Assembly: GCA_000934665.2 (NCBI GenBank)
Contig: KZ538552.1
Coordinates: forward strand, 1 to 63,696
Direction: 5' to 3'
Source: Catajapyx aquilonaris
Taxonomy: Eukaryota
DNA length: 63,696 nt
The notes beneath the pieces are model-generated. The model did no database searches and had not been told where the DNA came from. It was given only the letters and a program-made list of their open reading frames with translations. The translations under genes and the position numbers were made by a program. Position 1 is the first letter of the stretch; each line of letters begins with the position of its first letter. Shown piece after piece: positions 1,543 to 62,590 of the stretch.

Positions 1543-2373
1543 TTACATCAAACTGGGAATAACTGCTGCATAAGCAGTTTCAGGATCATCATAGGCATCC
1601 ACATGATCTCCTGATTTGTATTTACCCTCTTCGAGGATTTTGATTAATTTTTGAGCCGTTGCGGTTGGAGTCAAGAGATACTGATTTTTGCTTAATTTTT
1701 CTTTGTTCTCATTTACCACCCCAAAATTTGACATGTAGTCCCACATGAGCTTCGTCGAAACTAATCCCGGAGCATAGCAAAGAACATTAAATTTAGGGTT
1801 CTCCAGAGCAAATGTTTTAAAAATTATATCTCGAGTAGCTTTTCCAGTGCAATACAAAGCCGAATTTGGAAATGTTACAATAGCTGCCTGAGATGTAATT
1901 TGAACAACTGTGTGTTTGCCGACAACAGCCTCGTTGAAGACTTTTGTGAATTGAGAGGTCAGACATACAGCAGAAAAAACATTCATAGTAAAATAATCCT
2001 GCATTTCCTTCGCCTGATCCATATCAGCAACATTCTTCATTGGACCCTGCGATGCAGCATTGTGAATCAAAATGGCATGCTGGAAATCAGAGGCCTTTTT
2101 TCCCAGCTTGTTCAGGCAACTGTTGATGGACTGAAGGAACTTTTGGCTGTTGCAGTTGCCCAAATCAACTGATTCTGTCACCACCTTGACATGTGGGGCA
2201 GCCTTGGTCACCATTGCCTTGGTTTCATCCATGCCCTTCACATCCCGTGAGAGCAGAAGAAGGGCAGAGTCCTTCTCCATCCGACGTCCAAATTCCACTG
2301 CCATGGCCTGCCCTATACCACGACTGGCACCAGTGATCAGGCAGAATGCCCGGCCCTCCCAGAATTTGGACAT
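1543..2373 (-). CDS. SPR: Sepiapterin reductase-like SDR, paralogue 1 (276 aa, intronless CDS)
   Basis: TGASRGIG Rossmann motif, HNAA, QITS...YCTGK (S-Y-K intact), LENP-x-VLCYAPG, SGDHVDAYD as in SPR. Start set at MSKFW (ATG 2373) by alignment to paralogues and the acceptor ttttggtttcag ending at 2389; the ORF-track start at 2433 is not an ATG. Confidence 0.92.
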   Translation of the reverse strand: MSKFWEGRAFCLITGASRGIGQAMAVEFGRRMEKDSALLLLSRDVKGMDETKAMVTKAAPHVKVVTESVDLGNCNSQKFLQSINSCLNKLGKKASDFQHAILIHNAASQGPMKNVADMDQAKEMQDYFTMNVFSAVCLTSQFTKVFNEAVVGKHTVVQITSQAAIVTFPNSALYCTGKATRDIIFKTFALENPKFNVLCYAPGLVSTKLMWDYMSNFGVVNENKEKLSKNQYLLTPTATAQKLIKILEEGKYKSGDHVDAYDDPETAYAAVIPSLM

Positions 2374-4819: not shown

Positions 4820-5653
4820 TTAAGAAAAGGAGGTGTAGGTGTTGGGATCCTCATAATAATCAACGTGATCCCCAGAGGTGTACCTGCCATCCTCCAGAAT
4901 CTTCACCAGCTTCTGAGCAGCCATGGTCGGAGTGAGAATATTCTTGTTCTGCGATGCCGCCTTGTTGATGTCAGCCTTGCCAGATGGATCAAAGGCTGAC
5001 ATAAACTCCCCCAAGAGTTTGGTCGCCACAATTCCCGGTGCATAGCTAAGAACACTGATCTTGGGCTCCTCTAGAGCCAGTGACTTGAACATGATGTCAC
5101 GAGCCGCCTTGGCAGCACAATATTGAGAGGTAGTGGGAAAGGCATTCTGAGCAGCATAGGAAGTGATCTGGACCACTGTGCGACGGCTCACAGCTTCCTG
5201 GCTGAACACCTTCAAGAAATGTGCGTTCAGACATATGGGTGACACCACGTTAAAATTCAGATAGCTCTGCAGATCTGAGGGCTGCTCCATCTGGGTCACA
5301 GGAATCATGCTTCCAGGAGATGCTGCGTTGTGGACGATGATGGCGTGTTCGAAGTCAGTGGCCTTCTTCCCCAGGCGGATGAGACAACCGGTGATGGAGT
5401 CCAGGTACTTGAGGGGCTCGTTGACTGCAGCCAGATCGACCGACTCGATGAACACCTTCACATCTGGAGAGGCCTTGGTTACCAGGCCCTTGGTGGCATC
5501 TAAACCGGAGGTGGTACGGGCCATCAACAGGAGCGTTGAGTCTTTGCCGAGCATTTTGGAAAACTCGACGGCCAGTGCCTGCCCTATTCCTCGACTGGCG
5601 CCGGTGATCAGACAGAAGCTGACTCCCCCCCAAAATTTTGATTGGCCTGGCAT
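4820..5653 (-). CDS. SPR: Sepiapterin reductase-like SDR, paralogue 2 (277 aa, intronless CDS)
   Basis: TGASRGIG, HNAA, QITS...YCAAK, LEEP...YAPG, SGDHVDYY; AATAAA (minus strand, 4813-4818) right after the stop. Confidence 0.93.
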   Translation of the reverse strand: MPGQSKFWGGVSFCLITGASRGIGQALAVEFSKMLGKDSTLLLMARTTSGLDATKGLVTKASPDVKVFIESVDLAAVNEPLKYLDSITGCLIRLGKKATDFEHAIIVHNAASPGSMIPVTQMEQPSDLQSYLNFNVVSPICLNAHFLKVFSQEAVSRRTVVQITSYAAQNAFPTTSQYCAAKAARDIMFKSLALEEPKISVLSYAPGIVATKLLGEFMSAFDPSGKADINKAASQNKNILTPTMAAQKLVKILEDGRYTSGDHVDYYEDPNTYTSFS

Positions 5654-7097
5654 TCTGTTTCTGCAAGAACCATTTCACACGGTACAATAAGAGGGGAAAA
5701 AGAGTAATCAACGCCATGGAAAGGGAGAGTATAGTGAAGGGTGCATTGGCATGCAGAAAGCCTTTCCCATGTACACCTAGAATCACTTGCACGAAATGCT
5801 TTGTACATAGTCTCCTCCAAGCATTTGAAGGAAGATCTGAAGTTCTCGCCCACTCCCAGTAGTAGCCCAAATGTACCAGTGTGCACATGCAACCAAGATA
5901 GAAAGCTGAGTTGTCAACTAGAGGGTCCTAGGATGGATCACATTCATTTTCTCATTATATTTTTATATTTGTTTGCATATTAAAATTCCTGAATTTAATT
6001 ACCTTTCATGAAGTACACCTTCATACACTGATATTTTAATGCAATTGGACATAAGTGTCAGTAAAACTGCAGTGTGGATTGCCGCATGTCTAGAGCCTTA
6101 CAGATGTAGCCAAACTTTTGTTGGTGAGTGGTCAGTGCTTTTGCATGCACATTATCCTTCCATTTTTACATGCTTTGTTTTGGGCCAAGAAAACCACTGG
6201 CAGACAAAGGACATAAAAGAAGTAACCTATAAAATGTCTTCCAATAGAGATATTGGTTCTCGGTTGAAATATTTTTCACCCTAAGTTGGTTATTTTTAAG
6301 CAGTTACTTTGAAACAGTTACATTAGAAGTTAGCAAAAGTATTAGGAGCTAATATAAGGATGAATTGAATAATACATTCCAGCTTGGACGAGCTTGGAAT
6401 TGCAATGAATTTCCAATTACAAAGGAATTACTGGAACAACAGGCATTGAATGTCAATGATGGAACCCTTATTTTTAGGTAGATCCCCCTGCAAGGCATTA
6501 AAAAGAATGGATTCATGCAACCTGATATTAGCAGCCAATGATTTTGATAATCTCTAAAATTACCTGTTCCACACTACCTACCACAATGAGAAGCTAAGGG
6601 CAAACAAATTGCTAACAAGAGATCCTTTTGAAAGGCCTTCCTTGCACAAGGAATGTATGATGGATACCAACTTGCATTGCAATTGCGTTTTCAAAAGAAA
6701 CTATGTTGCTGTCAGACATTCTCAACCTCCCCACCATGTCTCAAATGGTGAGCTGAAGTCATCAATTTATTTCCAAGGAAAGACTAACCCTTACTGGCGT
6801 GCGGGATGCAGCAGGGGGAGTGGTGGCTGGGGGCAGCTTGGCTATGTCGCAAAGGCAGATTGATTTTTCGGATTTTGGAAGGGGTGTGCTGTACCAACCT
6901 AACCTAACCTAACCTTCCTTGCTTGCGGATTTAAGGCTGGAAGTGGTCTGGCTCTTTAAAAATATAGAATTAAATGACCTGAGCACGCAAATTAATTACC
7001 AATTAATGACCAAAATTTGACCAGATAATGGCTTCCTGGGATTAACACTTCGCCAAAAACAACCAAAGAAAATGTGTTTATCCAAAGTATGGTGGTA

Positions 7098-7849
7098 CAG
7101 TGCCGTGCACAATAGCATATAACAAGTGTAAACAACGACTTTGGCGTTACCTGGCAACTGGGCGTGTTCGGACATCGGCATGTGGAGAGTGCTTAGCGCT
7201 CTTTCTGTCATTGCCACTGTTTACAGGTAGCGATTGATGCTGGGCGACCTATAGCGAAGGGTGTGTGCATGCTTACCAATGCATGGCATCGGAATGAGCG
7301 GGCTGAGGGGGATATTATTATTATAATTATTATAATTATTATAATAATAATAATAATAATAATTATTATTATTATAATAATTATTATTATTATTATACCC
7401 CATTGGGATTTACCATATCCTTTAGGGGGGTGGATTACCACCATCGGAAATTGGAGCCATATAAGAAGATCTTATTTAATTACTCCAGGGTAGGTATTGG
7501 AGGGGATGTGCTAAGTGCAAGTGCAATGTCTCTAACGGCCATTCCGTAACTCCATCATCGTGGGAATAAGACAGTGACGATAGTGTGATAATAACGAAGC
7601 GCCTTCTCAAAATAATATCTCCTCAGCCCGCTTATTCCGATGCCATGCATTGGTAAGCATGACCACACCCTTCGCTATATAGGTCGCCCAGCATCAATCG
7701 CTACCTGTAAACAGTGGCAACGACAGAAAGAACGCTAAGCACTCTCCACCACTCTTGCTCTCCACATGCCGATGTCCGAACACACCCAGTTGCCAGGTAA
7801 CGCCAAAGTCGTTGTTTACACTTGTTATATGCTATTGTGCACCGCACTG
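7098..7849. mobile_element. Tc1/mariner-type MITE, 752 bp, ~220-bp terminal inverted repeats, TA TSD
   Basis: TA|CAGTGCCGTGCACAATAGCATATAAC... mirrored by ...GTTATATGCTATTGTGCACCGCACTG|TA; arms ~7098-7318 and ~7611-7849 are near-exact reverse complements. Confidence 0.88.
7312..7397. repeat. (ATT/AAT)n microsatellite inside the MITE
   Basis: Alternating att/aat triplet runs read directly. Confidence 0.95.
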
Positions 7850-10978: not shown

Positions 10979-11289
10979 GCTCAACTGCAACCAAACTCCT
11001 TCAAATTCTAGGGATCCCCAAATTCCAGTGAGCAGGTTCACTCAAGGTGTGCACCTCTTCCTATTCCATCTTGTAGAGCACTATTACAGAAGATAAAAGA
11101 TACTATGCACCTGTATTTTCAAATCCTTCCTAGTAACCAGTGTCGATTCAGTGTGATTTAAAGTGATGCACGACTCTGCAAGGTGATAAACAAAACATAT
11201 GGCATGAAAATTGATAACAAAGCAGGCTCCACATTATGCTTTATTTTCTGCACATAACAATGTGTTCATGATTTTCCCAAAATACATCA

Positions 11290-12135
11290 TTAGTCCATCA
11301 TTTTAATAGGATCAAGCTCCCTAGCTGAGTAGTAACTCAACTTGTCTCCAGACTTGTACTCCCCCTCTTCCAGCAAATGCAAAAGCCTACTTACAGATTC
11401 TTCAGTAGTGAGAATCATCCCTTCATCAAACATCCTCCTAAACTCTGCCCTTGTTTCTGGATTTGGATTGTCAAGTCCACCTTTCTGCAGCATGTCTGTA
11501 TACACTGGGCCAGGAGAATAACCCAACACCAGAATATCAGGCTCCTCAACAGCCAGAGCTTTAAATGCTAAATCCCGAGCTGCTTTCCCCATCCCATACA
11601 AGCCACCACTTTTAAATGGCTTTGTTCCAGCAATAGAAGTTATCTGAATGACAGTCCTTCTCTGATCATCCAACTTACTGAACACCTTCAAAAATTGGGT
11701 GTTAAACAGCAGTGCAGCATATACATTTGTTCTCATGTATGATGACACCACATGCATGTCATCCCACTGCGACACAAATCCAGAGTCGGCCAAATTAGTT
11801 GCAGCATTATGAACAATGACAACATGCTTAAAATCAGCAGGTGAAAGTCCCAGCCGATTTAAGCAACCATTAATAGCAGTCAAATAGTCTTCATTCTCAG
11901 AGGTCGAAAAATCCATACCTGTCACCACAACAGTTATCCCTGGTGTGTCGGACTCAATCTGGACTTTGACCTTGATCAATTTTTCTGTATCTCTCGCCAA
12001 CAACAACATGACCGACCCTGCTTTGAGTCGGTGGGAAAATTGCACTGCAATCTGCTTACCAATACCTCTACTGGCCCCAGTCACTACGCAAAACGCCCGA
12101 CCTTCCCAAGAAAAGAAAGGCGCCGCTGAAGCCAT
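11290..12135 (-). CDS. SPR: Sepiapterin reductase-like SDR, paralogue 3 (281 aa); putative second cistron behind CCDC32
   Basis: TGASRGIG, HNAA, QITS..KPFKS..LYGMGKAARD, VEEPD..YSPGPVYTDM; strong Kozak context acaATGG; AATAAA on minus strand at 11240-11245. Confidence 0.93.
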   Translation of the reverse strand: MASAAPFFSWEGRAFCVVTGASRGIGKQIAVQFSHRLKAGSVMLLLARDTEKLIKVKVQIESDTPGITVVVTGMDFSTSENEDYLTAINGCLNRLGLSPADFKHVVIVHNAATNLADSGFVSQWDDMHVVSSYMRTNVYAALLFNTQFLKVFSKLDDQRRTVIQITSIAGTKPFKSGGLYGMGKAARDLAFKALAVEEPDILVLGYSPGPVYTDMLQKGGLDNPNPETRAEFRRMFDEGMILTTEESVSRLLHLLEEGEYKSGDKLSYYSARELDPIKMMD

Positions 12136-12149
12136 TGTGTTCCTCCCAC

Positions 12150-12475
12150 TTACTCTTTCTTGGTTTCTTGATCCTCCTCCTCCTGCTGCTCTTCCTCAAG
12201 TGCTTTGGCCAGCTGATCAGCTTGAAGCAACTCCACCAGCTCCTCGAAGTTGACTGCCTGTCTTTCGGGAGCAAGCTTCCTCAACAGCACGTTCGGGTTG
12301 AGCGGTGCGTCCAAATCGTCTAGGGGGTCCCTGCTATTCTGATCCTCGTCGCGACCCTGGGTCACCAGACGGAGAAGATATGACTCGTGGGTTTGCCGCA
12401 GGGAATCCACCAAATGCCGGCGTTCTTGTAAGGAGCCCACCTTATGCTGCCCTTGAAGCCGCTTTAGCTTGCCCT
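12150..12475 (-). CDS. CCDC32: CCDC32 homologue, coding exon 2 (terminal)
   Basis: Acceptor ttgcag ends at 12476; phase-1 join gives ...YLASL-E-GKLKRLQG...LRKLAPERQAVNFEELVELL, matching recalled human CCDC32 blocks (YLASLEKKLRRIKG; RWLQPDKVAVSTEEVQYLI); stop TAA 12152-12150. Confidence 0.85.
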
Positions 12476-13050
12476 CTGCAAGCAGAGGGGAGGAAACAAT
12501 GGCGTCTAGTTCCCAAGGGTTCCCTATCTGTCTAGCCCATCGGTCTTATTTATCATGTAGCCGGTACCAACCCTCTTGAGTGCTACTTGGGTATTCAGAC
12601 TTGAACAAACAAACCCGGAGATTGATGTGACCCTGCTGAAGAATTGCCGCCGCCGCGACGGTAGCCTGAAAGCCGCTTTCACCCTCGCAACTCGCATTCG
12701 AATGCCGCGATGATTTACCGTACGGTACTATAACGCCAAATGCATCACACTACATGGAGTCGAGGGGCCAGACAACGTGTTCCGTTAGTAAATGAAAGCC
12801 ACGTGATATCATCATTGAATCGCGGCCACTGATTAGAAATGCACCGCATGGCTAACGATGTTGTCATACATATGCGATTGAACGAAGAAGAGCGTATACA
12901 CTAGCATCACGTAACGAAGTCATTACCATTTTGCATATATGAATCGACCACAAAGCCACAGTCTAGACAGTGAAGCTTCCTAAGGGAGCTAGCGCGGTAA
13001 TTGCACGGGGAAGTGGGGGATTACAGGGCTCCCTGATGTCATCAAAACAG

Positions 13051-13440
13051 AGGGTCGTCCATAAAGAACGTCGCACAGATTTCCCAATGTCACGAACTCT
13101 CCGACTTCCCCTGGCACAGCAAACACGTGATTTTTTGATCTGGGATGGGATATAAGCACTCTTTGCCTACGTGCGCAACTACGAATCAGTAATTGCAATC
13201 AAACATTATCAACTCATTAAAATTACCCCTACCTATTAGACTTTTTCGAAGAAAAAAATCTTATAGACCGGCTGTCTGTCTGTCTGTGGACAGCTATCAG
13301 ACAGACAGGGCCGTGCTATATGATTTTTTTCGAGCTTTTGACGCCTCTCGAACATGAGCACCTCCCACTCCTCACGTCACAATCCGTCACGAGACTCGCG
13401 ACCCACCCAAATCAGCGTGACGTACTTCATGGACGACTCC
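13051..13440. mobile_element. Non-autonomous DNA element (PIF/Harbinger-like TIR family) with internal fold-back
   Basis: Left agggtcgtccataaagaacgtcgcac vs right gcgtgacgtacttcatggacgactcc (~25-bp imperfect TIR); internal inverted repeat 13246-13333 with (CTGT)n/(ACAG)n arms. Confidence 0.6.
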
Positions 13441-13520
13441 GTACTTTGCGTTTTTAATATCATTATCCAATTTCCCTACATATCCCTAAATTTGAGCGTA
13501 ATCAAACTATCCCTAAATCC

Positions 13521-14315
13521 CTAATATCCCACGCGATCCCCGGATTGATACAACCCTTCCCTGAGCACCTGGACCAGTCTGGCCACCGTGACAGCCGGCG
13601 ACAGTAACTTGCCCTCCTCTTTCATCTCTTTCAACTCCCTTTTCAAAGCCGGGTCGGCCGTGTGCCGCATCGCTTCTTCAAACTGATCCGTGGCCACCAT
13701 CCCAGGGGCATAACAAATCACTCCGACCGAGGGTTCCTCCAAGGCCAGAGCCCGAAAGTACATCTCCCGGGCAGCCCTGCTGGTGCAATAGGCGGCCCAG
13801 CTCCTCTCGGGTTTCAAAGCGCAATCTGAAGATATGTTTATCACGGACCGCTTCCCCCGTGTAAACAGATTGAGAAATGCCATGTTCAGGTCGACAACAG
13901 CGAAGATATTCAGCTGATACATGGCCTGATACTTCGACTTGTCTACTTCAAGGATCGGGTTCATTGCCTCGCTGTCCATCATGGCGGCGTTGTGGACGAT
14001 CATTGAGTGGTCAAATTGATCGGGTACGCGGAACAAACCAGATAATGCGCTCTTCAGAATGCCAGTTAGATTTGGACACGTTTCGTTTGCGAGATCGACA
14101 GCAGCTACGCACACTTGTAATCCGGGGCAGGCCGATTCCACCTCAGATTTGGTTTGCTCCAATGCGGCCTCATTGCGGGCCATTAGGACCATTACGGAAT
14201 TGGTACCCAAATTTTGGCCAAATTCGATTGCAATGGCTTTTCCTATCCCTCGACTGGCACCAGTCACCAGGCAAAATGTGGTCATACCCCAGAATTGTTC
14301 AGCAGCAGGGTCCAT
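13521..14315 (-). CDS. SPR: Sepiapterin reductase-like SDR, paralogue 4 (264 aa), nested in the CCDC32 intron on the same strand
   Basis: TGASRGIG, HNAA, NISSDCALKP..WAAYCTSRAARE, LEEP..YAPG, SGDRVGY; intact ORF; acceptor cattttcag ends at 14341. Confidence 0.9.
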   Translation of the reverse strand: MDPAAEQFWGMTTFCLVTGASRGIGKAIAIEFGQNLGTNSVMVLMARNEAALEQTKSEVESACPGLQVCVAAVDLANETCPNLTGILKSALSGLFRVPDQFDHSMIVHNAAMMDSEAMNPILEVDKSKYQAMYQLNIFAVVDLNMAFLNLFTRGKRSVINISSDCALKPERSWAAYCTSRAAREMYFRALALEEPSVGVICYAPGMVATDQFEEAMRHTADPALKRELKEMKEEGKLLSPAVTVARLVQVLREGLYQSGDRVGY

Positions 14316-14953
14316 TTCAATCTCCTTTTTTGTGCCAATTCTGAAAATGAAGGTGGTATGCTGATAATACTACCAGCCCAAGTTATGCCAAATAATAACC
14401 TGGCACAAGCATATCCTTTTTGACCTTCTCTGTCAGTGGCAAACTATTCACCAGGATTTTACCCCAAGGCCTATAGTAATCCTCCCACATATCCAAAACA
14501 TCCTGTTTACTTCAGTCACACACCTAATGGCATCTTTATGGACATCCCTTGGGAGCCTAAATAAGCAGGGTCGTGTTCCCAGTCTACTAGAACTTGGCCT
14601 CTGGTAAGTAAGGTTGTAATTTTGTGATTATTACAATTCTTCCCTATAATCTCTCACATTGGTAATCAATAAAACTACTAAATTGGTCCTGTTGCACATT
14701 GTCCCCTGAACCTGAACTGCAGCCTACTAATCTTTACCAACCTTATATTATCTATTTACTAATATTATTAAAACAAATAAAATAAATAAATCTGATTCTG
14801 TGATTACCTCCACATTCGTGCATTTCAAGTCTCATATATCATCAATATGATTAGCAGCATATCACATAAAATGAAAGTAATTACAACTGATGAACCAGAC
14901 AAGTTTTTGCAACAGGTGGTGAGAATGTCATAAATGTAAGTGCCAATTTTACA

Positions 14954-16108
14954 CACAATGGGCCGAATTTTCGTCTTTTTATTAGCCACTGTTAGTCACT
15001 GTTTAGAGGTTCTGACTATTATCTTACGATGGACGAAATTTTCTTGCTCCTGATTAGGCACTACTAAACATGGAACTGAGTAGTTAATAGTTTAAGTGAG
15101 GTTCGAGACACCTCATGGTGTCTCTTAAGTCACCCCGTCACATGAGAAATGGCCTACGCGGTGACGACTGTTCTACTTGTTCGGTGCCTTCGACGCGGTT
15201 TACGGGTGCCGAGGCGCTACCTGCCCCTCCTGGATGCTTTCATGAGATACAGGGTGATACAACATCCAACCACTTTTGTATGCCAGTCTGCATATACAGG
15301 GTGTTCCAAGTTCATGGGTTGTTTTATTTATAACTGACATTGCCCAAAGTAGTTATTTTTTGTAGCTTGTTGCACCTCTCGTCCCAGATGGTCCCTCATC
15401 GGAGAGCAAAAATAACAGTTATTTAAATAGCTGTTGCTAAAAATACCTGTAAGGATCACCTCTCCCCAGAAGTTCGTCATACCTGAAAGTAAATTTGGAG
15501 CAACAGGATCAGGGCGCAACAGGCTACAAAAATAACTACTTTGGGTGATATTAGTTATAAATGAAACAACCCTCGAACTTGGAACACCCTATATTGGTGA
15601 AGTCAGCAATCGATCTTTTACATCCTGCACCGTGCGATCACACATCTTCCGCTTCTACCTACTTCATACCAAAAATCGCACAGCACGAGCACAAGGAATA
15701 ACCCAGATCACGACCCAGATCTACTGCCCTGAGGCCCTGCTCCATAGTCATGAACGTCACATTGTCCATCACCGCCTTCTCCTTCACTTATAATAATAAT
15801 AATCTGGGTAGTGTTAGACCTCAATCGAGGTGTGCAGCATGGACCTTTATTATACTTGTAGTACCTTCTCCTTCAGTTGTTTACACCGGGAGGCATGTCA
15901 TGCACAGGCGACGCTTGTCAATGGTCACTAGCAAGCACTTAATCGGACTGATTAGGCGAGACAGCACTGGTTTGTAAAATAAAAAGCGGCTAATAGAACG
16001 ACGAAAATTCCACCTTGAACAGTACCACTAAAAGCACGTACATAGTTACTAATTAATCAGTTCTGTATAGGCGCTACTAGAGGAAAGACGAAAATTCGAC
16101 CCATTGCT
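14954..16108. mobile_element. Non-autonomous DNA element with CACAATG-type end (Transib-like), hosting a nested MITE
   Basis: Left cacaatgggccgaattttcgtcttt, right aaagacgaaaattcgacccattg; subterminal copies of gacgaaaatt; right heptamer is degenerate. Confidence 0.5.
15297..15591. mobile_element. Mariner-like MITE (CAGGGTGTTCCAAG family), ~75-bp TIRs, TA flanks
   Basis: TA|cagggtgttccaagttcatgggttgttttatttataact... mirrored by ...agttataaatgaaacaaccctcgaacttggaacacccta|TA. Confidence 0.82.
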
Positions 16109-17188
16109 TCTTAAATTACTCTACACAAAACTATCCACGTGTCATTCTCAACAAAGCTAATTTTTTGTCCAAAATAAAGGCTCACTTTCAAGAAAAAGCA
16201 ACAATGTGTAATGCTGCATTACTATAATCAAGCGCTAATAACTGCTCTTACTATAATATAATGGCTATTACTGTGCAGTAAAGAGGCAGAATAGTAGTTT
16301 ATTATGCAGGGCATGGAGTGATAAGCTGGCCAAGTGGCTTGCAAATTCTCCTATTTAAATGGCAGATACCTGGCATGAAAACTACATAACTACACCATTC
16401 AACTTTCAGGATAAAATGATAAATTCATGGAGTGGAATTTTCATCCCATGGTCACTAGATGACCATTTAATACTCAGAGAGTGGCACAGTCCTCACAAAA
16501 TGCTATGGTGATTATGGGAAGATAGATGTTATCACATGCCCATGTGCATACACAAGTTCTATGAGCACAGCATTACATTTGTTTTCAAGATTCCATTGCC
16601 ACCTTGTTATTGCGACATTTGCCTTCAATCTAATGGGCATGCAAAGTTGAATTTAAAATTCACATGCTACAATGCATTTCAATTATACTCAAGACGCATC
16701 ATTTGCATCCGCCAGTGGTTCTGATGGCTCCTCCATGTGAAATGCCAGGACCTAATATTATGCCATGTAATAAAGATGAAATACAAGCAATTATGTCAGT
16801 GGCATACAAGAGGGGTGGTGACCAGCTAAAATCTACAGAAACTATTTGATCTCTAATATGGATACCAACATCACTGTTGGATAGAAAATAATACACTGGA
16901 CCCAAGATACTGGAAAGTTTGGGCAAGCACTTCTTAATAGTGATTTTTATAAGCAGTGACTTGTCCAAGTGTCAAGTCCCATAAAGACTAAAAATGCATG
17001 TCACAATATTCTGAACCTCAATGACTTAGTAGTACCAGGAGGTAGTACCAAGAAATATTTGATTCTTCCGTGCTCTAATTTAGTGAAAATGGCAACGAAA
17101 GAAGCGAATGTGATAAGTAATGGTGATTTGGAACCTGTTAACATGTCCTAATTTAGTCATGTATGTGCTGGACATTAATTCAGCCCTT

Positions 17189-17423
17189 CTGCTAGCGACA
17201 TTTTCCAATGTGAAAGAAGTGCAAACTGAAGTGATAGAGTGCGAACCGAGTCAGTAAGAAATGGTAGGCCTAGGGTGATGTCACCAGCTGTGGACAAGCC
17301 TTTTTCTCCAAATATTGTCCCCAGCTGGTGATGTCACCCAAGGCCTACCACTTCTTACTCGCACAGCTCGCACTCTATCAATTCGCTTTGCACTTCTGCC
17401 CCACCTGAAAATGTCACTAGCAG
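17189..17423. mobile_element. Fold-back MITE (~235-bp imperfect palindrome)
   Basis: ctgctagcgacattttc...ggtaggcctagggtgatgtcaccagctg mirrored by cagctggtgatgtcacccaaggcctacc...gaaaatgtcactagcag. Confidence 0.7.
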
Positions 17424-18058
17424 TACCACGGAATTAATGTCCAGCACTGTACTAGTCCTAGCCCTAGTCCTTTAGATCCATCAGTTGACAGAGGCAGACC
17501 TGTCCTTTTTCGGTGTTTGAAACTGAGACATACAAGCAGGTCGCCTAGTGGTATGTAAAACCAGGGTGTGGTCGCCGAAACTGAATGTCTAGTTGCCATT
17601 CTTGTTTTAAACATTATGTCACATTTTAAATATTAATTGTTAATTGGGTGCCACAAACACCACAGAGTCACCAAGAGCTTCAACAGGAAACAAATTGAAA
17701 ATGCGACCAGAATCAGAGCAATCATAATTTTATTACTGAAAGAAATGTAATTTCGGGAGGAAAAAGCTAGTCGCCAAAACTTCGATTACCAATTGATAAT
17801 TTTAAGTCGCAAAATGCGACTGGCTACTGCTAATTCCGAACCCTGTCCTTTTTGTCTTTACTGTCTGACAGGTCCGACAGATCTGAAGTACTACGGATAG
17901 AACAAGTGCTAGAACTGTCCCAAGGATGTCATTGGGTTAACCCCCTAGTTAATGTTCATGATGTTATTACAACATGTAATTTGTCTCCTCTTGGCTATTT
18001 TCTTGGGTTGGTTTTTCAGTCTACTGCTAGCTATTTTTAGCAAGGATCGCTGTCAACA

Positions 18059-18162
18059 ACTAGTAACCATGGTAACCTACAACAAAGTTTGCATCAGAGT
18101 CCCGACTAGTACTAGTAACCATGGTAACCTACAACAAAGTTTGCATCAGAGTCCCGACTAGT
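18059..18162 (+). repeat. Exact 52-bp tandem duplication
   Basis: actagtaaccatggtaacctacaacaaagtttgcatcagagtcccgactagt x2. Confidence 0.92.
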
Positions 18163-18565
18163 ACAAGCAAGCTGCTATAGCCAACAAACATCTGGGAATG
18201 CACTTCTGGAACTTCTCATATTTCAAATTTCCATGGAGATGCCCTCATGCAACAAAACCGCAATATTTTTTTTCCTTTCGCTGCATGATGGCGGTATCTC
18301 CACGAAAACAGGAAAAGCGGGAAGGTTCCAGAAGTTCATTCTCAGATGTCCGCTGTTTTAGGACCATTGCACCAGCGCAAAATTCAGGTCTACTCTCATT
18401 ATTAATTGTTGCCAACAATTAACAACATGGACCTGTACCTGTACCTTGCTTGGAATGCAACTGGCCTACAGCAGCATCAAACGAATCACATTGATAACTT
18501 GTAGCCTACTAATAAAAACATGAAACAGCTGGCTCATACTACTTCAGCCGGCTAATTGGGCTCAC

Positions 18566-18755
18566 CAAGTGACGCCAAGTACTGGTCCGAATCAGGTAAC
18601 CTGTCGTGAGTATCTCGCACCACAAAGTGGTCCTCAAAGCCTAGGGTAACAGTAGGAGACGATGATCCTTGGAATGACCCCTCTCCAGTGACACCAGAAT
18701 CAACCTTGTCTTGTTCAGGTCCCCAGGGGCTTTCAAGTGCCGTCTGCTCCGTCAT
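18566..18755 (-). CDS. CCDC32: CCDC32 homologue, coding exon 1 (full protein 171 aa)
   Basis: MTEQTALESPWG...FEDHF...LPDSDQYLASL, then G|gtgag donor at 18565; matches CCDC32 motifs (W, FxDxF, LxDSxxYLASLE); phase agrees with exon 2. Confidence 0.85.
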
Positions 18756-18786
18756 GTCAGTGGTCCAAGGCCACCAGCAACAGAAT

Positions 18787-18859
18787 CTGATTGACACATG
18801 CGTGAGAAACACACGGTTGTAAATATCACCTGAGATTGACTATCGACTACGCAACTTAC
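18787..18859 (-). other. Putative 73-nt 5'-UTR intron of CCDC32 (non-coding leader exon ends at 18860)
   Basis: GC|gtaagt donor at 18859 and tcaatcag| acceptor at 18787, 31 nt before the CCDC32 ATG. Confidence 0.5.
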
Positions 18860-19875: not shown

Positions 19876-20426
19876 CAGTTGAGAATCCTTTGTCCGAAAT
19901 GCTTGAAACCAGCAGTTTTTCAGAATTCGGATTTTTCGGATTTCGGAATACATATGTAGCCTATGATACAAGTATATTTGCAACTATATGAAATGGAACG
20001 GATTTGGGATGGGATAAATGCCCTATAACGATATCGATATACAGTAAAACTTCTATAATTCGAATCTCCATGGGACCGGAAAAAAAACTTCCGAGTTATA
20101 GAAGATTCGAGTTAGGGGAGTTTATTTCCTATTCTTTTACATTGTGACCAACCAAGCTATAAGTCGAATAATATTATTATTCGACTTATAGAGAACTTCG
20201 ACTTAGGGAAGTTTTACGTGCATTATTTTCTTAATAGAGATTATGTATAAACCCTGTAGGTAGTTTTATATACATTATAAATATTTTTTATACGTGCAGG
20301 TGCAGGTAATGACGCTAGTAATGTCACATTCACATGTAATTTTCTATTTGTGGTGCGTCATGTCAGGTGTCAGCACTCAAAAAACTTTCGGACTTCGGAA
20401 TTTCGGATAAAGGATTATATCAACCG
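19876..20426. mobile_element. pogo/Tigger-type non-autonomous element resembling Tigger4 (Zombi/MER46) ends, TA TSD
   Basis: TA|cagttgagaatcctttgtccgaaatgcttg...ttcggatttttcggatttcggaata ... ttcggaatttcggataaaggattatatcaaccg|TA; related end fragment near 34775-34812. Confidence 0.7.
20042..20220. mobile_element. pogo-like MITE nested in the Tigger-like element
   Basis: TA|cagtaaaacttctataattcgaa ... ttcgacttagggaagttttac; repeated ttcgaSttatag subterminal motifs. Confidence 0.65.
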
Positions 20427-20878
20427 TATTCATAAAATATCACTGAGCATGAGCTACAGGTAGGCCTACGTATTATTTAAAAAGAATTATGTCTTTATTT
20501 TTATTGTTTATTGCAAGGTATTACAACTTCACGGATTAGGTTAGGTTTGATATTGGGAAAAAAGTGATGTTAATACTGAGTGTCTTACAATAGCTATAGG
20601 TTCTCGCCTTATGTTCCGCAACAATACAATCCACACTTGCGACATAAAAATTCCTGCATTTTTCAATGTCAAAATCCCGATTAATATACCTTGTAAATCT
20701 AGAAATAGTTTTTTTCCCCAGTCTGATAATATATTGTCACGTGAAAAAATTTGCCTGTCGTTATACATAAATCATCAGTGTAAAAATATGCACATTTAAC
20801 CATCTCACGAAAGAAAACGATTAATGACGTGCTAGAGCGCTGCGCCGCTGCGTCATACACTACAAGCACTACTATATT

Positions 20879-21712
20879 CTAAGCATGGAAAGACTTGTAA
20901 GCTGACGGGTCATCATAGTAGTCCACATGCTCTCCTGGCTTAAACTTCCCTTCCTCCAAAACCTTGATCAACTTCTGAGCCGTCATGGACGGCGTGGCCA
21001 ACACCCCCTTCTCGGTAGTTTCCTTCGCCACCTTCTTGGCATCCGCCCCTACACCCGTCATAAACTTGTTAAACAACTGCGTCCCCACCACCCCTGGCGC
21101 GTAACACAGGACAGTCATACTGGGCTCCTCCAAAGCCAGAGTCTGGAACATCATGTCCCGGGCCCCTTTGACAGTGCAGTACAGGCTGGTCATAGGAATA
21201 GGCTGGAGACCAGCCTGTGCGCTGATCTGCACCACAGTCCTCTTCGCCACCGCCTCCTTGGTGAACACCTTCAAGAACTGCGTGTTCAGGCAAATGGTCG
21301 AGAAGAGGTTGCTGGTAAAAAACCGTGTCATTCCTTCCAAATCCTCCTGCTGCGAGACCGGAACTTTGGTCTCTTCCATGTGTCCAGCGTTGTGCACGAT
21401 CATTACGTGGTCGTAATCGGAGGCTTGGCATCCCAGTTCTTGGAGACAGTCGGTGAAAATTCGAAGGTACCGCTCATTGTTACCGGTGGTCAAATCGATT
21501 GGAGCGGTCTTCACCTTGATCTCAGGTGAAGCCTTTTCTACCTGGGTCTTGGTGTCGCTGAGACCCTCGATGCTTCTGGCCAGTAGAAGCATGGCGGAAT
21601 CTTTCTTCATCACTTTGGATACTTCGATGGCGATACCCTGGCCGATGCCACGGCTGGCGCCCACCACAGCGGTGAACATGCGCCCTTCCCAGAATGATGA
21701 ATCTTTCGGCAT
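20879..21712 (-). CDS. SPR: Sepiapterin reductase-like SDR, paralogue 5 (277 aa, intronless CDS)
   Basis: VGASRGIG, HNAG, QISA...LYCTVKGARD, LEEP..YAPG, PGEHVDYYD; acceptor tgtttcag ends at 21765. Confidence 0.92.
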   Translation of the reverse strand: MPKDSSFWEGRMFTAVVGASRGIGQGIAIEVSKVMKKDSAMLLLARSIEGLSDTKTQVEKASPEIKVKTAPIDLTTGNNERYLRIFTDCLQELGCQASDYDHVMIVHNAGHMEETKVPVSQQEDLEGMTRFFTSNLFSTICLNTQFLKVFTKEAVAKRTVVQISAQAGLQPIPMTSLYCTVKGARDMMFQTLALEEPSMTVLCYAPGVVGTQLFNKFMTGVGADAKKVAKETTEKGVLATPSMTAQKLIKVLEEGKFKPGEHVDYYDDPSAYKSFHA

Positions 21713-24700
21713 GATTGATGCTTTCGATAAGACCTTGCTCTTTCCGCACCCTATTTTTGCGCTCCTGAAACATTTACGAGAATTTGAACTGATGTAAATC
21801 CAGCGATTTTAGTTGTATTGTAACTGAGACTTGCCCGTGAAATTTTCAATCAGATTCTGAGAAACTGCTACGTATTCAATAGGCTGAATAACATGTTAGG
21901 TGACAAAAATGCAAGGCCTAATTAGCATTTGTAACATTTTCCACGAATTCATTGAATTACTGTCTACGTACAGCAAAAGGAAAAAAAAACAGTGCCTTAC
22001 CAAAAGTTCCAAACGAATGTCCAGGCCTTTCTCCGAGAGAGTTCTGACTACATATGCCCTTGTAATTTTTTTTCTCCCCAGGTCTCCAACAGTTTCCGAT
22101 ATGCATTGATTATGCAACTTTACTACCTGTCCAAGGACACCATGATCAATGCTGCATACTGACGAAGCCGTCATTTATCACCTTCCTGCTGATATTACGA
22201 TCACGTCTCGAGCTCCCCCCCAAATTATCATCCAGTATCAATTACCAATGGCGACATGATATCAGATTCCCTTTGCAGTTTTACCGCCGTGTGTTTGTGA
22301 TGACGTATCCGTGTTGCTATCGTGACACCTCAGGTGTGACCTCTCGGATGAAACACCCTAAGTTTGCACGGCATCTGTTGGTATCCATCCAAACCTGCTC
22401 ATCAGTTGTATTGTCACCACACCTTGCGCGAATATGCAGAACTATATATTCTTGGTTTCTGATTCCAATAATGACGAACATTAGAGCATATGAATCTCAG
22501 AATTCTCAGGTCCTATCCTGAAGAGCTCTCTACCGTCAATATTGAAGGGAGGTTGTGAGGTGGCAGGTGATAGATTTGGACGGATTGGCCCTCCTCACCT
22601 GGCACAGACCTTTCCTCCGATGATTTATCACCGTCGGGGGCAAGCCAGGTTTGGAGGGGGCAGCCAAGAAAAAGCGAGCCCTGAGGGTTGACACATGACT
22701 GACAGCCTCCTATATGCGAGTCTCTCCCACACAACCAAATGTTAAGTCATGACAGTGCCTGGCCCCCTTCTCTACAAAGGATCGGTGTGTCGGTGGGATT
22801 GGATACAAAAATGGTTTAATAAGATTTTGCTCTATAGTCCTGGACCTACCAGTGTGTTCTAGGAAGGGATATTAAGCTGTCAAGATATACAGGGGGTGAC
22901 ATGGATGCTGATATTTTTTGAGGTTTTTAGAGCCTACTAATGTCACTTGTGATAGGTCATTCAGGAACACCCAACACCCGTAGTATCAGCTACGGGTTTT
23001 CGGCCTGCAAAGTGTAGTCCCAGCCCATCTCTGTTTTCCCACGTATATAGAGATACCAGTAGCACCGAATAGGGTGCTAAAATGGGCAATAGGACATTCT
23101 AAGCACTCTCGTGCGTTTCCCATGGAAATTGAAGGCTGCATCTGAAAAGGGCCTCATTCCACTAAACACTGAATGCAACTGAATGGAGATAATAATTAAT
23201 GAGAAACTGGTTTGAAATTGCACCATTCCCACTACGACCCGAAACTTGTAAAATTCATATGAAGTAGTACTTAGTCTATTTAACAGTTGATAAAAACTCA
23301 AGGGCAAAGGTTCTCAGGTATAGGCTACGTGTCGATACCATTTTAATAACCCATTCTTAAATATGAACAATTTTTTCTACACGTACAGTAACTTCAACAA
23401 GTGCCCTGCACATTTATCTTGACGTCATCCGACAATGTGCATTTTCCTAGTTATTACCAATGGTGATCCCCCGAATATGTATAAACACATCAAAACCGTG
23501 ACTTCCACAGTCCCTCTGAAAATCACAACTTTCTATACGAAAGCCAACATCGACTCCTATTTCTTGATAAAAATTATAGTTCTTAGAGTCACAATAAAAC
23601 TAAACAACCCCCCATGAATCCTTCTTACCAGGAACCGTGCACCTGCTAATCCCTCCGGTTCATGACTTAATCCGCACGCGACTTTATCCCCTCCTAACTT
23701 TATTATCATCTCCTAACAGGTACCATTCCACTTAACGGTTATTGTTACGGGGTAGAGCAACTCCTTCCTTTGCTTCCGGTACCGGTACTCTCGAGAAAGT
23801 AGCCGCTCATTTAGTTCCTTCAAGAACGAGGTTTAATAGCACCAAATATTGTATTCCAAAACTTATGTAGTAGATACGATCGCTCGTTATTACAGCTCAT
23901 TACTAATGAACAGCAGAGTATAACCCGCCAAGGTGGTCTAGGACAAACTATATGAACCGGAGAGGAATTATTGATATTGTCAGGCAACAAAGTAATAAAA
24001 GAAAATATGCTGTCACTGCACTTGTCATAATATATACCTTTTATTGCAGGTAACCAACAAAGCCTAGTTTGCAAAGGTCGATACGGTTTGAATTTATTAG
24101 CCTCCACAGGAGTGGAAGTGAAACATTAAAAGTGGCTACTTTTTGAATGTGGTATTTTGCGTTGTCAAGTGCGTCCACCCCGCCCACTAATTTGTAGCAT
24201 AACGTGTCTTGAAGGTAAGAAGAGCTCCGGCAACATCTGACAACTGCGTAGAAAATTCCCCTCCGGGTGGTCCTTTCCCTTTGGTTTCGGCAGTCGTCTT
24301 TTATGTTCCCTAGTCTTGTTTTTACTTTCTGTCTGGATAACACAGCAGAAAAAAAACCCCCAAAATCTTTTACTACATAATTATCCCAAAGCTATTCATG
24401 TATTCAAGGACTCGAGTATTTGCACTACTCAGCGGATAAGGTCGGTGGCCATAATTCACTCACGTTGCATGACTCTTTACCAATGGTTATTTTTGTAGAG
24501 GCGTCTCAATCGGAGCAGGGTACAATCGGCATTTCTCAAAAAGCTGATGAGAAACATCACTGGCACGCAACATTTGGCCAGGAAACGGGTGATTTTTGCC
24601 CCCGTGATTTGTGAGGCTAACTTTTGCTGTCCCTTTTGTGAATTGGATTCACTTCTCAACCANNNNNNNNNNNNNNNNNNNNNNNCCCCCCCCCCCCCCC

Positions 24701-60900: not shown

Positions 60901-62137
60901 CCACTTTTGCGATAAGTGGACTAATTGTAGTTTTTTTCGGGGGGGGGGGAGGATAGGGGGAAGTAAACATATGAGTCATGTGAAGTTCCGGAGGTCTTAT
61001 AAATTGGCTCTCGTTAGACGGCTATTGTGGGTACGGGTCACAAAAACGGGGGGAATTTTTACATTCGTGTTAACCTTGAGGCGGCGTAACATGTGTAATT
61101 AGAATTATCAATGATCGTGTAGTGCGCCATAAAAAATATATCCCCGAATCAGCCGGACTCAAGTCACGATCCAATTCGCATATATCTCGCAAAAATTTCA
61201 GGTCGTTCACTTTGACACCAATCTAGGAAGCTATGCGTTGGATTGAGGGGGGTGCTTTACAACAACAGGCGCAAATGACTCATTGTCAATAACACATGGC
61301 GCCTATCTTATCTATGGGGGACTAAAGTCTTCTGATTTCGAAAATGAGGTGCCTGGGCGTGTTCCAAAAATGAGAGAAAAAAAACCGGGGCTGGCTGCAA
61401 CAATAGCTCCCATCCTACACAAAAAAGGTACATAAAGCACGGAATTCATCACCTCCATGAGATCGTGATGGCGCTATTCCCCCCCCCCCCNCCCCCCCGC
61501 CCCCACAAAATGCCTTCACTTGCCCTTCTCTCAACAGTCGGTGGTCTACTCCGGAGCAAGGGGCAATAAAGGGATAGAAAACAATCAGCATTATGGTCGT
61601 CAAGTGCAAGAGGAAGGCTGCACCCAAACTACCATTTCATGACGTTTATGCCTCATGTTTCCCCATGTAGTAAAACTCGGATTTTGTTTTGTGGTCGGGC
61701 TTATTTTCCAGGAAGAACAGCCGGCGGGCCCGGGCTCGAATGAGCCAATCAGCCCCTTTTCACCCATCTTACAAAATTGAAGGGAGGGCATCCCTCGGGA
61801 AAATTTCGTCTACACTGGGTACGCCCACATTGGGTCGACAATGGCTGCAAATTATAAATAAGTGAGCGGCCTCTTTTTCCAGGGGGTTCATCAGAATAAC
61901 CCAATATTGGCTACCCTTCCGGATGACCTTTGTGGCAGGTTGGAACCCTGCGTTCTTCGGCCCACCAAACCCCACCTCTCGTGCACCAATCTGGATTTTC
62001 AGGTTGGGCACAGGTTTATGAGCCCCGCTTTTTCTTTTGTTGGGCTTCTAGGGCCGCACTACTGGAGCTACCACCCGCAGAGCCGGGGCTGACCAGGTAA
62101 AAGGAGCGTCGACACACACATTGTTTGCGGTACTTAC

Positions 62138-62333
62138 CGTTGTAGTTGTCAAAGGCGGTGGGCACATACTCGGTAGGATAACCGTTGGTGGTGTAGCTGA
62201 CCACCAGCGAGGTCTTCCCAACAGCACCATCGCCGATCAGCACACATTTGATACGGGCTTTGCAGTCTTTAAACTGTTCCTCGTTGGCCGGAATCAACAG
62301 GCTGGTGCCACGGTCTTTGGCGTACGGAGGCAT
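62138..62333 (-). CDS. RHOU: RhoU/Wrch1-like Rho GTPase, coding exon 1 (full protein 277 aa)
   Basis: MPPY...[38 protein letters not shown], then G|gtaagt at 62137; G1 and G2 boxes with the RhoU-type sequence. Confidence 0.93.
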
Positions 62334-62590
62334 CTTCGGCGAAGCCCGTGGGGATGGAATGGTTGACAGCAGCTGAGGGGGGATGTGAACACCCCCCGTG
62401 ACTACCCAGCTCGGGAAGATGCAACACTGTCCACTATCACTGCACACGCCGGTACACACATGGAACTGTCTGGAAACTACAACTGCCGTACCATCCCACC
62501 GTCTCCTATCCCACCCGGGCCCTGACTGTTCTTCAAATCAGCCCTCCCTGTGCCAGCAGCTGATCCCATTCGACCACCTCTCCTCCCATC

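What the first reader, a model, noticed from the sequence alone, without database searches (positions are those of the whole stretch)
11290..18755. AUG-free CCDC32 ORF followed 14 nt later by SPR-3: candidate leaky-scanning bicistronic mRNA
Seen: the CCDC32 stop (12152-12150) and the SPR-3 ATG (12135) are 14 nt apart, with no room for a poly(A) site, promoter or pyrimidine-tract acceptor. I read both coding exons (18755-18566, 12475-12150), their junction and the spacer and found no ATG in any frame after the start codon over ~530 nt; about 8 are expected at uniform base composition. Codon choice appears to avoid NAT-G (GAC GAG GAT CAG; GAC GAT TTG GAC GCA; CAC GAG; AAC GTG). The CCDC32 start context is intermediate (gacATGA) and the SPR-3 context is strong (acaATGG). 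Known: AUG-depleted upstream ORFs are the signature of leaky-scanning bicistronic mRNAs. Inference: one mRNA encodes both CCDC32 (an AP-2 adaptor assembly factor) and an SPR-family enzyme. I know of no description of this pairing, but could not search for one.
Basis: partly seen in the sequence, partly recalled or inferred. Interest (0 to 1): 0.9.

Follow-up and report, generated by a model that had tools for sequence, protein, structure and literature searches.

The report
CCDC32 and SPR on one mRNA
In this animal genome the gene for the endocytosis helper CCDC32 stops 14 bases before an intact sepiapterin-reductase gene in the same exon and contains no internal ATG, so both proteins are probably made from one messenger RNA, a rare but known arrangement in animals.

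Summary
On the minus strand, a two-exon CCDC32 ORF (18755-18566, 12475-12150) stops 14 nt before the ATG (12135) of an intact 281-aa sepiapterin-reductase-like ORF, SPR-3.

- **ATG depletion.** The 527 nt between the two start codons hold no ATG. It is the only one of 64 trinucleotides that is absent. A dinucleotide model expects 5.2, and 0.1% of shuffles reach zero.
- **Codon choice.** NAT is never used before a G-starting codon (0 of 6, against 12 of 21 elsewhere; Fisher P = 0.017).
- **Transcript evidence.** The only public run found behaves like a transcriptome. One contig joins exon 1 to exon 2 at GT..AG. Another, 1112 nt with no differences, runs from the exon-2 acceptor through the stop and spacer into SPR-3.
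- **Gene structure.** The four SPR paralogues in the window each have a splice acceptor 8-52 nt before their ATG. SPR-3 has none.

My best reading (about 0.5) is a bicistronic mRNA with SPR-3 translated by leaky scanning. The main rival (about 0.3) is an SPR-3 transcript with another 5' end. No single molecule and no translation was seen. I file it as a new member of a known kind, of moderate interest.

The parts
18756..18788 (-). 5' leader of CCDC32 seen in the run's contig; ATG-free. The contig carries about 27 further letters that do not lie on the genome directly upstream. An AG sits at 18788-18787, so an upstream non-coding exon is possible.
   Evidence: record 7: 279 letters, 18566-18788 laid
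18566..18755 (-). CCDC32 coding exon 1 (ATG 18755-18753, context gacATGa; 63 codons + 1 nt; GT donor at 18565)
   Evidence: the N-terminal region aligns with the N-termini of homologues
12476..18565 (-). CCDC32 intron (6090 nt, GT..AG), removed in the run's contig; it holds the paralogue SPR-2 on the same strand
   Evidence: (joint 12475 to 18566)
12150..12475 (-). CCDC32 coding part of exon 2, including stop TAA 12152-12150; Pfam CCDC32 PF14989
   Evidence: (E 3.6e-7, 30.7 bits against cut-off 27)
12136..12149 (-). 14-nt inter-ORF spacer (GTGGGAGGAACACA): purine-rich, with no pyrimidine tract, no acceptor-like site and no poly(A) signal
11290..12135 (-). SPR-3 ORF, 281 codons + stop, in the -1 frame relative to CCDC32; start context acaATGg; sepiapterin-reductase-type SDR with the glycine-rich NADP motif and YxxxK
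11365..12476 (-). Stretch covered by one 1112-nt contig of run X1 with 0 differences: whole exon-2 CCDC32 part + spacer + SPR-3 codons 1-257
   Evidence: record 6
11240..11245 (-). First canonical AATAAA after the CCDC32 stop, 45 nt past the SPR-3 stop (ATTAAA at 11307-11302 lies in the last SPR-3 codons)
20879..21712 (-). Paralogue SPR-1 (context): single coding exon, acceptor at 21763, 45-nt non-coding 5' exon 22045-22001 joined in the run
13521..14315 (-). Paralogue SPR-2 (context), inside the CCDC32 intron; acceptor-like site about 29 nt before its ATG
4820..5653 (-). Paralogue SPR-4 (context); acceptor-like site 8 nt before its ATG
1543..2372 (-). Paralogue SPR-5 (context); acceptor-like site 17 nt before its ATG

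Best explanation
CCDC32 and SPR-3 are two cistrons of one nuclear mRNA. Transcription starts upstream of CCDC32 exon 1. The 6.1-kb intron is removed, and the terminal exon carries the last 108 CCDC32 codons, a 14-nt spacer, the whole SPR-3 ORF and a short 3' UTR with AATAAA. Most scanning 40S subunits start at the CCDC32 AUG (G at -3, A at +4: intermediate context). Those that pass it meet no other AUG for 527 nt, so they reach the SPR-3 AUG (A at -3, G at +4: strong context). That is leaky scanning, and selection has purged every AUG from CCDC32.

Shown here: the anatomy, the splice, unbroken assembled cover across the stop and start, and the ATG depletion with its codon-choice signal.

Inferred: that single molecules carry both ORFs, that SPR-3 is translated from them, and that leaky scanning is the route.

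Likely origin (inferred): the coding exon of one member of an old tandem array of SPR genes, each built as a short non-coding 5' exon plus one coding exon, became continuous with the last CCDC32 exon. CCDC32 thus took the place of SPR-3's 5' leader.
For: (1) Stop and ATG are 14 nt apart in one exon. The spacer has no acceptor-like site. No canonical poly(A) hexamer lies between 12150 and 11307.

(2) Run X1: the joint 12475 to 18566 has GT..AG ends. A 1112-nt contig with 0 differences covers 12476-11365, across the CCDC32 stop, the spacer and 257 SPR-3 codons, and it starts exactly at the exon-2 acceptor rather than in the intron.

(3) ATG: 0 in 527 nt against 5.2 expected (P = 0.001). ATG is the only absent trinucleotide of 64. 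0 of 7 possible out-of-frame ATG junctions are used, against 45 of 71 in the five neighbouring SPR ORFs. NAT is used at 0 of 6 sites before G and 12 of 21 elsewhere, P = 0.017.

(4) The family's one conserved Met column (M in 20 of 25 aligned homologues) is Leu here.

(5) All four SPR paralogues have an acceptor 8-52 nt before their ATG, and SPR-1's is confirmed by a joint in X1. SPR-3 alone has none.

(6) SPR-3 looks functional. Its best PDB matches are sepiapterin reductases at E about 1e-41 over its full length, against 1e-9 for the next SDR. A 72%-identical protein with the same N-terminus exists in another organism's assembly.

(7) ATG depletion upstream of ORF 2 and a weaker ORF-1 start context are the published marks of leaky-scanning bicistronic loci in green algae (PMC11291117, section 8 read; PMC7896298, passages).
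Against: - No single read or long molecule spanning exon 1 to SPR-3 was seen. A contig across two genes does not show one transcript (caveat printed).
- The kind of run X1 is not on record. That it is RNA-derived is my inference from its GT..AG joints.
- The 1112-nt contig stops exactly at the acceptor. In a de Bruijn assembly this suggests that exon 2 has more than one upstream partner in that run. Only exon 1 is visible as a partner.
- The CCDC32 start has a purine at -3, so leakiness may be modest. No species-wide start consensus could be made.
- Absence of internal Met is not unusual for this family: 3 of 16 full-length-like homologues have none, and the mean is 2.0.
- Exon 1 alone (187 nt) being ATG-free is weak evidence. 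About 4.5% of random 187-nt genomic windows here have none.
- Exon 2 is T-poor (16% T), and that lowers the ATG expectation.
- The arrangement could not be checked in any relative.
Confidence: 0.5

Rival explanations
1. SPR-3 is made mainly from its own transcript, which shares the terminal exon with CCDC32. One form would use an alternative, ATG-free non-coding first exon spliced to the same acceptor at 12475, like the 5' exons of the paralogues. The other would start at a site inside exon 2. The CCDC32 C-terminal coding region then serves as SPR-3's 5' leader and is kept ATG-free for that reason. CCDC32 mRNAs carry SPR-3 only as a 3' UTR.
For: Paralogues have short non-coding 5' exons (SPR-1: 45 nt, joint; acceptors). 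The 1112-nt contig ends exactly at the exon-2 acceptor, as expected if exon 2 has more than one upstream partner. Most of the ATG-depletion signal lies in exon 2: 5 of the 7 avoided junctions, and a 405-nt genomic ATG-free gap 12540-12135 that is the second longest on that strand.
Against: Only one joint into 12475 is listed, the one from exon 1. Exon 1 is also ATG-free, with both of its possible junction ATGs avoided. No promoter evidence of any kind exists for exon 2.
Confidence: 0.3
2. Bicistronic mRNA, but SPR-3 is translated by termination-reinitiation. Ribosomes finish CCDC32, the 40S subunit stays on the RNA and restarts 14 nt downstream.
For: Stop and start are only 14 nt apart. The spacer contains UGGGA, the letters of the 18S-complementary motif 1 of calicivirus reinitiation elements (motif recalled from memory; sequence).
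Against: From established knowledge, reinitiation falls steeply once the upstream ORF exceeds a few tens of codons, and this ORF has 171. Reinitiation does not predict removal of ATGs from the upstream ORF, and that is the strongest signal here. A 5-letter motif in 14 nt may be chance.
Confidence: 0.08
3. Two separate monocistronic mRNAs. CCDC32 mRNA is cleaved just after its stop using the weak AAGAAA hexamers at 12169/12161, and SPR-3 is transcribed from a start site within the last part of exon 2. The ATG depletion is chance plus composition.
For: AAGAAA variants lie 9-17 nt before the stop. The exon is T-poor. Met-free CCDC32 proteins occur elsewhere.
Against: The contig runs unbroken from the acceptor to SPR-3 codon 257. 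Shuffles give P about 0.001, ATG is the only absent trinucleotide, and the codon-choice test gives P = 0.017. A 3' UTR of about 10-25 nt would be unusual.
Confidence: 0.07
4. A fusion protein made by -1 frameshifting or readthrough, or an SL-trans-spliced operon that is cut into two mRNAs.
For: SPR-3 lies in the -1 frame of CCDC32, and that frame is open from 12195. The exon-1 contig carries about 27 unplaced 5' letters next to an AG.
Against: No X XXY YYZ slippery site lies in 12195-12150 (read). The SPR-3 N-terminus starts at the same Met in its 72% relative. No acceptor or pyrimidine tract precedes the SPR-3 ATG, and the contig shows no branch there. No SL RNA or any other Rfam family is found in the window.
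Confidence: 0.02

Closest known systems
Nuclear bicistronic loci of green algae translated by leaky scanning (Gallaher et al. 2021, PMC7896298, passages read; PMC11291117, section 8 and passages read)
   Same: Two unrelated full ORFs lie on one exon or transcript with a very short inter-ORF spacer; a 14-bp natural spacer is cited there. ATG is depleted upstream of ORF 2, and the ORF-1 start context is weaker than that of ORF 2.
   Different: This is an animal genome, where such loci are exceptional. ORF 1 here is long (171 codons) and completely ATG-free. No experimental support exists here.
Vertebrate bicistronic mRNAs with two full proteins: RPP14/HsHTD2, GDF1/CERS1, SNURF/SNRPN (review PMC4705651, passages read)
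   Same: A housekeeping protein ORF is followed on the same mRNA by an unrelated metabolic-enzyme ORF sitting in what would be the 3' UTR. The mechanism is thought to be leaky scanning and/or reinitiation.
   Different: A different gene pair. According to the review the mechanism of those pairs was not investigated, and I did not check whether their upstream ORFs are ATG-free.
Drosophila dicistronic genes, e.g. Sloth1/Sloth2 (PMC9681215) and the FlyBase dicistronic models (PMC4528330); search listing and abstracts only
   Same: Animal nuclear transcripts that encode two peptides or proteins from adjacent ORFs.
   Different: Sloth1/2 are small paralogous peptides. Here two unrelated proteins of 171 and 281 residues are paired.
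SL trans-spliced operons of nematodes, tunicates and others (recalled, not from a call)
   Same: Closely spaced same-strand genes transcribed together.
   Different: Those are resolved into monocistronic mRNAs through a trans-splice acceptor before the downstream gene. No such acceptor exists before SPR-3.

Membership tests
Leaky-scanning bicistronic nuclear mRNA | Both ORFs lie on one mature mRNA molecule | tested here: inconclusive
   The exon1-exon2 joint and an unbroken 1112-nt contig across stop, spacer and start are present. Contigs cannot prove single molecules, and no long reads are available.
Leaky-scanning bicistronic nuclear mRNA | Short inter-ORF distance without RNA-processing signals | tested here: met
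   14 nt; no acceptor-like site; no canonical poly(A) hexamer until 11307/11245.
Leaky-scanning bicistronic nuclear mRNA | Depletion of AUG between the first start codon and ORF 2 | tested here: met
   0 in 527 nt against 5.2 expected, P = 0.001. ATG is the only absent 3-mer. 0 of 7 junction sites are used against 45 of 71 in the neighbouring ORFs.
Leaky-scanning bicistronic nuclear mRNA | ORF-1 start context weaker than ORF-2 start context | tested here: inconclusive
   gacATGa against acaATGg fits by the vertebrate Kozak rules (recalled). No consensus for this organism could be derived.
Leaky-scanning bicistronic nuclear mRNA | Both proteins are made, and their ratio depends on the ORF-1 start context or upstream AUGs | not testable with these tools
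   Needs Ribo-seq, proteomics or reporters.
CCDC32 (Pfam PF14989) | Match to the family profile above its curated cut-off | tested here: met
   The exon-2 translation scores 30.7 bits against cut-off 27, E 3.6e-7. 47 HMMER relatives were found. Profile hits carry PF14989 and are named coiled-coil domain-containing protein 32 in decapods.
CCDC32 (Pfam PF14989) | AP-2 assembly chaperone activity | not testable with these tools
   Function is known from mammalian work (PMC11348294 and others; search listing and abstracts only).
Sepiapterin reductase (SDR family) | Full-length similarity to solved sepiapterin reductases, better than to other SDRs | tested here: met
   E 1.1e-41 over residues 12-270 to human and mouse SPR chains; the next non-SPR SDR scores 1.2e-9. 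Pfam adh_short E 2e-19.
Sepiapterin reductase (SDR family) | Glycine-rich NADP(H) motif and catalytic Ser...YxxxK | tested here: met
   Present and aligned with invariant columns G20, S22, R23, G24, G26, Y180 in alignment A1. K184 stands four residues after Y180, giving YxxxK, and aligns with Lys of human SPR (translation, alignment). It is not invariant across A1, where SPR-2 has Arg in that column.
Sepiapterin reductase (SDR family) | Enzyme activity on sepiapterin / 6-pyruvoyl-tetrahydropterin | not testable with these tools
   With five copies only 36-39% identical to SPR-3, substrates may have diverged.
SL trans-spliced operon | Trans-splice acceptor upstream of the downstream cistron | tested here: not met
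   The purine-rich spacer and the upstream codons have no pyrimidine tract, and the contig does not branch there.
Programmed -1 frameshift fusion | Slippery heptamer in the overlap of the two frames | tested here: not met
   None in 12195-12150 (sequence printed).

The most novel reading that the evidence does not exclude
An animal nuclear gene in which a conserved 171-codon protein (the AP-2 assembly factor CCDC32) has been purged of every AUG, including the family's one conserved Met. It now acts as a translated leader that meters ribosomes onto a downstream sepiapterin-reductase paralogue. The pair would have arisen when the coding exon of one member of a tandem SPR array was captured by the last CCDC32 exon. 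This would tie the output of a pterin-pathway enzyme stoichiometrically to an endocytic chaperone, and it would be one of the longest fully AUG-free upstream cistrons known in a metazoan.
Probability: 0.45. Interest if true: 0.65.

Novelty: new member of a known kind. Interest (0 to 1): 0.5.

Why it matters
Natural animal mRNAs that encode two unrelated, full-size, conserved proteins are few, and for most the translation mechanism was never worked out (PMC4705651).

This locus gives a clean, testable case. It has a long upstream cistron with complete AUG avoidance and a measurable codon-choice signature. It also has four paralogues in the same window that keep the ordinary gene structure and serve as internal controls.

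It matters for annotation too. Standard pipelines would either drop SPR-3 as a 3' UTR or invent a promoter for it. The case also shows how a tandem duplicate can be captured by a neighbouring gene's terminal exon.

The biological link between AP-2 assembly and pterin metabolism is unknown and may be nil.

Tried and rejected
- **Sequencing runs.** One run (X1) was listed and no RNA holder was listed. This says nothing on expression.
- **Uncovered stretch.** Nothing of X1 was laid on 11364-10754, which holds the last 25 SPR-3 codons and the 3' UTR. The tool says a hole proves nothing, and I could not explain why the contig stops at 11365. There is no GT donor there, and the frame is intact through the G-run, as the 72% relative shows.
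- **Contig depths.** Depths were 22.5 for exon 2 + SPR-3 and 9.5 for the exon-1 junction. I did not use them, because the tool states that depth cannot rank parts of a gene.
- **Word-indexed protein search** with the exon-2 translation: 4 candidates, none significant.
- **Profile search.** I looked for a CCDC32 fragment on a contig of the same length (1264) as the one holding the SPR-3 relative P0001. 20 hits, none on such a contig, so the arrangement in the relative stays unknown.
- **The listing of cluster members:** database switched off.
- **The genome search 'own':** no genome is held.
- **Metagenome scan** with the SPR-3/P0001 alignment: 279 pattern matches, none a relative.
- **Earlier findings of this scan:** nothing on this genome or on look-alikes. 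One search returned only algal and yeast cases that did not affect my reading.
- **Rfam scan of the window:** 0 families.
- **Bacterial promoter/terminator scan:** not applicable to a eukaryote, so ignored.
- **Literature search for AUG-depletion wording:** mostly irrelevant word matches.

Readings rejected:
- **Recent retrocopy in a 3' UTR.** All five SPR copies have a single coding exon, they are only 36-39% identical to SPR-3, and no A-tract follows SPR-3.
- **Frameshift fusion and SL operon.** See the rival explanations.

Full report
**What is there**

All features lie on the minus strand. An ORF starts at 18755 and runs 190 nt to a GT donor. It resumes behind a pyrimidine-rich acceptor at 12475 and ends with TAA at 12152-12150, giving 171 codons.

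The exon-2 translation matches Pfam CCDC32 (PF14989) at 30.7 bits against a cut-off of 27. An exhaustive HMMER search found 47 relatives. A profile search returned proteins carrying PF14989, some named coiled-coil domain-containing protein 32 in decapod crustaceans.

Fourteen nucleotides after the stop, at 12135, an 846-nt ORF begins and runs to 11290. It is a short-chain dehydrogenase (adh_short, E 2e-19). Its best solved relatives are mammalian sepiapterin reductases at E about 1e-41 over residues 12-270, while the best other SDR reaches only 1e-9. The nucleotide-binding motif and the catalytic YxxxK are present. A protein 72% identical, with the same N-terminus, exists in another organism's assembly. 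Every other relative is 42% identical or less.

**The observation**

- **ATG count.** Between the two start codons (527 nt of spliced RNA) there is no ATG in any frame.
- **Expected numbers.** Base composition gives 8. Dinucleotide-preserving shuffles give 5.2, and 0.1% of 5000 reach zero. Shuffling codon order gives 4.8 (0.04% reach zero). Permuting synonymous codons among identical residues gives 2.6 (2.3% reach zero).
- **Uniqueness.** ATG is the only one of the 64 trinucleotides that is absent.
- **Genomic background.** No ATG-free gap in the 63.7-kb window, on either strand, reaches 530 nt. The longest is 425 nt, and the exon-2 gap of 405 nt is the second longest on its strand.
- **Junction sites.** All 7 codon junctions that could spell an out-of-frame ATG avoid it. 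The five SPR ORFs in the same window spell it at 45 of 71 such junctions.
- **Codon choice.** The gene uses NAT freely (12 of 21) except before a G-starting codon (0 of 6). Fisher's one-sided P is 0.017.
- **Conserved Met.** The family's one conserved Met column (M in 20 of 25 aligned homologues) is Leu here.

Points against over-reading this:
- 3 of 16 full-length-like homologues also lack internal Met.
- Exon 2 is T-poor (16% T).
- Exon 1 on its own is not significant. About 4.5% of random 187-nt windows here lack ATG.

**Transcript evidence**

One public run holds the stretch, and its kind is not on record. Its contigs skip the CCDC32 intron exactly (12475 to 18566, GT..AG on the minus strand) and a 236-nt intron in the 5' leader of the paralogue SPR-1. 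I therefore infer that the run is RNA-derived.

A 279-letter contig holds exon 1 from 18788 and joins it to exon 2. A 1112-letter contig with no differences covers 12476-11365. That is all of exon 2, the CCDC32 stop, the spacer and 257 codons of SPR-3.

The tool warns that a contig across two genes does not prove one transcript. The long contig also stops exactly at the acceptor, which in this kind of assembly hints that exon 2 has more than one upstream partner. Only exon 1 is visible as a partner.

No canonical poly(A) hexamer lies between the CCDC32 stop and 11307. AATAAA stands at 11245, 45 nt past the SPR-3 stop. A CCDC32 mRNA therefore almost has to carry SPR-3.

**Context that sharpens the case**

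The window holds five single-coding-exon SPR-like ORFs on the same strand: 20879-21712, 13521-14315, 11290-12135, 4820-5653 and 1543-2372. The other four are only 36-39% identical to SPR-3, so this is an old array.

The four other copies each have a good acceptor 8-52 nt upstream of their ATG. They are built as a short non-coding 5' exon plus one coding exon, and SPR-1's 45-nt 5' exon is confirmed by a joint.

SPR-3 alone has no acceptor near its ATG. Its nearest acceptor is the CCDC32 exon-2 acceptor, 340 nt upstream. CCDC32 thus occupies exactly the place of SPR-3's 5' leader. The copy at 13521-14315 lies inside the CCDC32 intron.

**Mechanism**

My best-supported reading (0.5) is one mRNA with two cistrons. 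SPR-3 would be reached by the ribosomes that skip the CCDC32 AUG (gacATGa, intermediate by Kozak's rules, recalled) and scan 527 AUG-free nucleotides to acaATGg. AUG depletion before ORF 2 and a weaker first start context are the published signatures of leaky-scanning bicistronic loci (PMC11291117 section 8; PMC7896298).

Rivals:
- **Own 5' end for SPR-3 (0.3).** An alternative non-coding exon spliced to 12475, or a start site inside exon 2. The exon-2 part of CCDC32 would then be an ordinary AUG-free leader.
- **Termination-reinitiation (0.08).** It fits the 14-nt gap, but it fits neither a 171-codon upstream ORF nor AUG purging.
- **Separate mRNAs (0.07).** They would use weak AAGAAA signals.
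- **Frameshift fusion or SL operon (0.02).** There is no slippery site and no acceptor.

**Comparison with the known, and novelty**

Bicistronic nuclear mRNAs are well documented in green algae. They are known as rare cases in animals, such as RPP14/HsHTD2, GDF1/CERS1, SNURF/SNRPN and the Drosophila dicistronic genes (PMC4705651; listings). This is therefore a new member of a known kind.

Full-text searches for CCDC32 with 'bicistronic' gave 1 paper, a meeting-abstract collection. Among the 15 listed papers of a search for sepiapterin reductase with bicistronic, dicistronic, polycistronic or operon, none held 'sepiapterin reductase'. Neither search showed a description of this pairing.

**What could not be done**

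- No long reads or raw reads were available.
- No genome of the organism or of its relatives was available.
- The contig that encodes the 72% relative could not be fetched.
- Conservation of the arrangement and single-molecule linkage therefore remain open.

Noticed in passing
window 13521-14315 (-), inside the CCDC32 intron 12476-18565: An intact SPR-like paralogue (SPR-2) is nested in the CCDC32 intron on the same strand, with its own acceptor-like site about 29 nt before the ATG. A same-strand nested gene would have to terminate without cutting CCDC32 transcription short.
   Followed up: partly
window 18787-18815 (-): The exon-1 contig of run X1 has about 27 letters that do not lie on the genome upstream of 18788, next to an AG at 18788-18787. 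This could be an unplaced upstream non-coding exon or a leader. In the unspliced genomic sequence an ATG at 18799 opens a 15-codon ORF whose TGA overlaps the CCDC32 ATG (ATGA).
   Followed up: no
window 12136-12149 (-): The 14-nt spacer contains UGGGA, the letters of the 18S-complementary motif 1 of calicivirus reinitiation elements (motif recalled from memory). It may be chance.
   Followed up: no
window 11365 (-): The 1112-nt contig of run X1 ends inside SPR-3, at a run of G 75 nt before the stop codon. There is no splice donor there, and I have no explanation.
   Followed up: partly
proteins P0109, P0115, P0124: Three CCDC32 homologues from other organisms also have no internal Met, and they carry Leu or Ile at the family's conserved Met column. 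It would be worth checking whether they too have a downstream ORF.
   Followed up: no
window 19964-20577 and 7070-7700: Stretches with high summed contig depth and many differences in run X1 (for example depth 85 at 19964-20577). They are probably expressed repeats or transposon fragments between the SPR copies.
   Followed up: no
window 62016-62537 (-): An ORF piece with the start of a Ras-family GTPase domain (Pfam Ras, E 7e-9), probably an exon of a small GTPase gene.
   Followed up: no
proteins P0093, P0100, P0105: Gene calls from other organisms' genomic contigs diverge from the family alignment at the residue matching the exon-1/exon-2 boundary seen here. This suggests that the CCDC32 intron position is conserved.
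   Followed up: no
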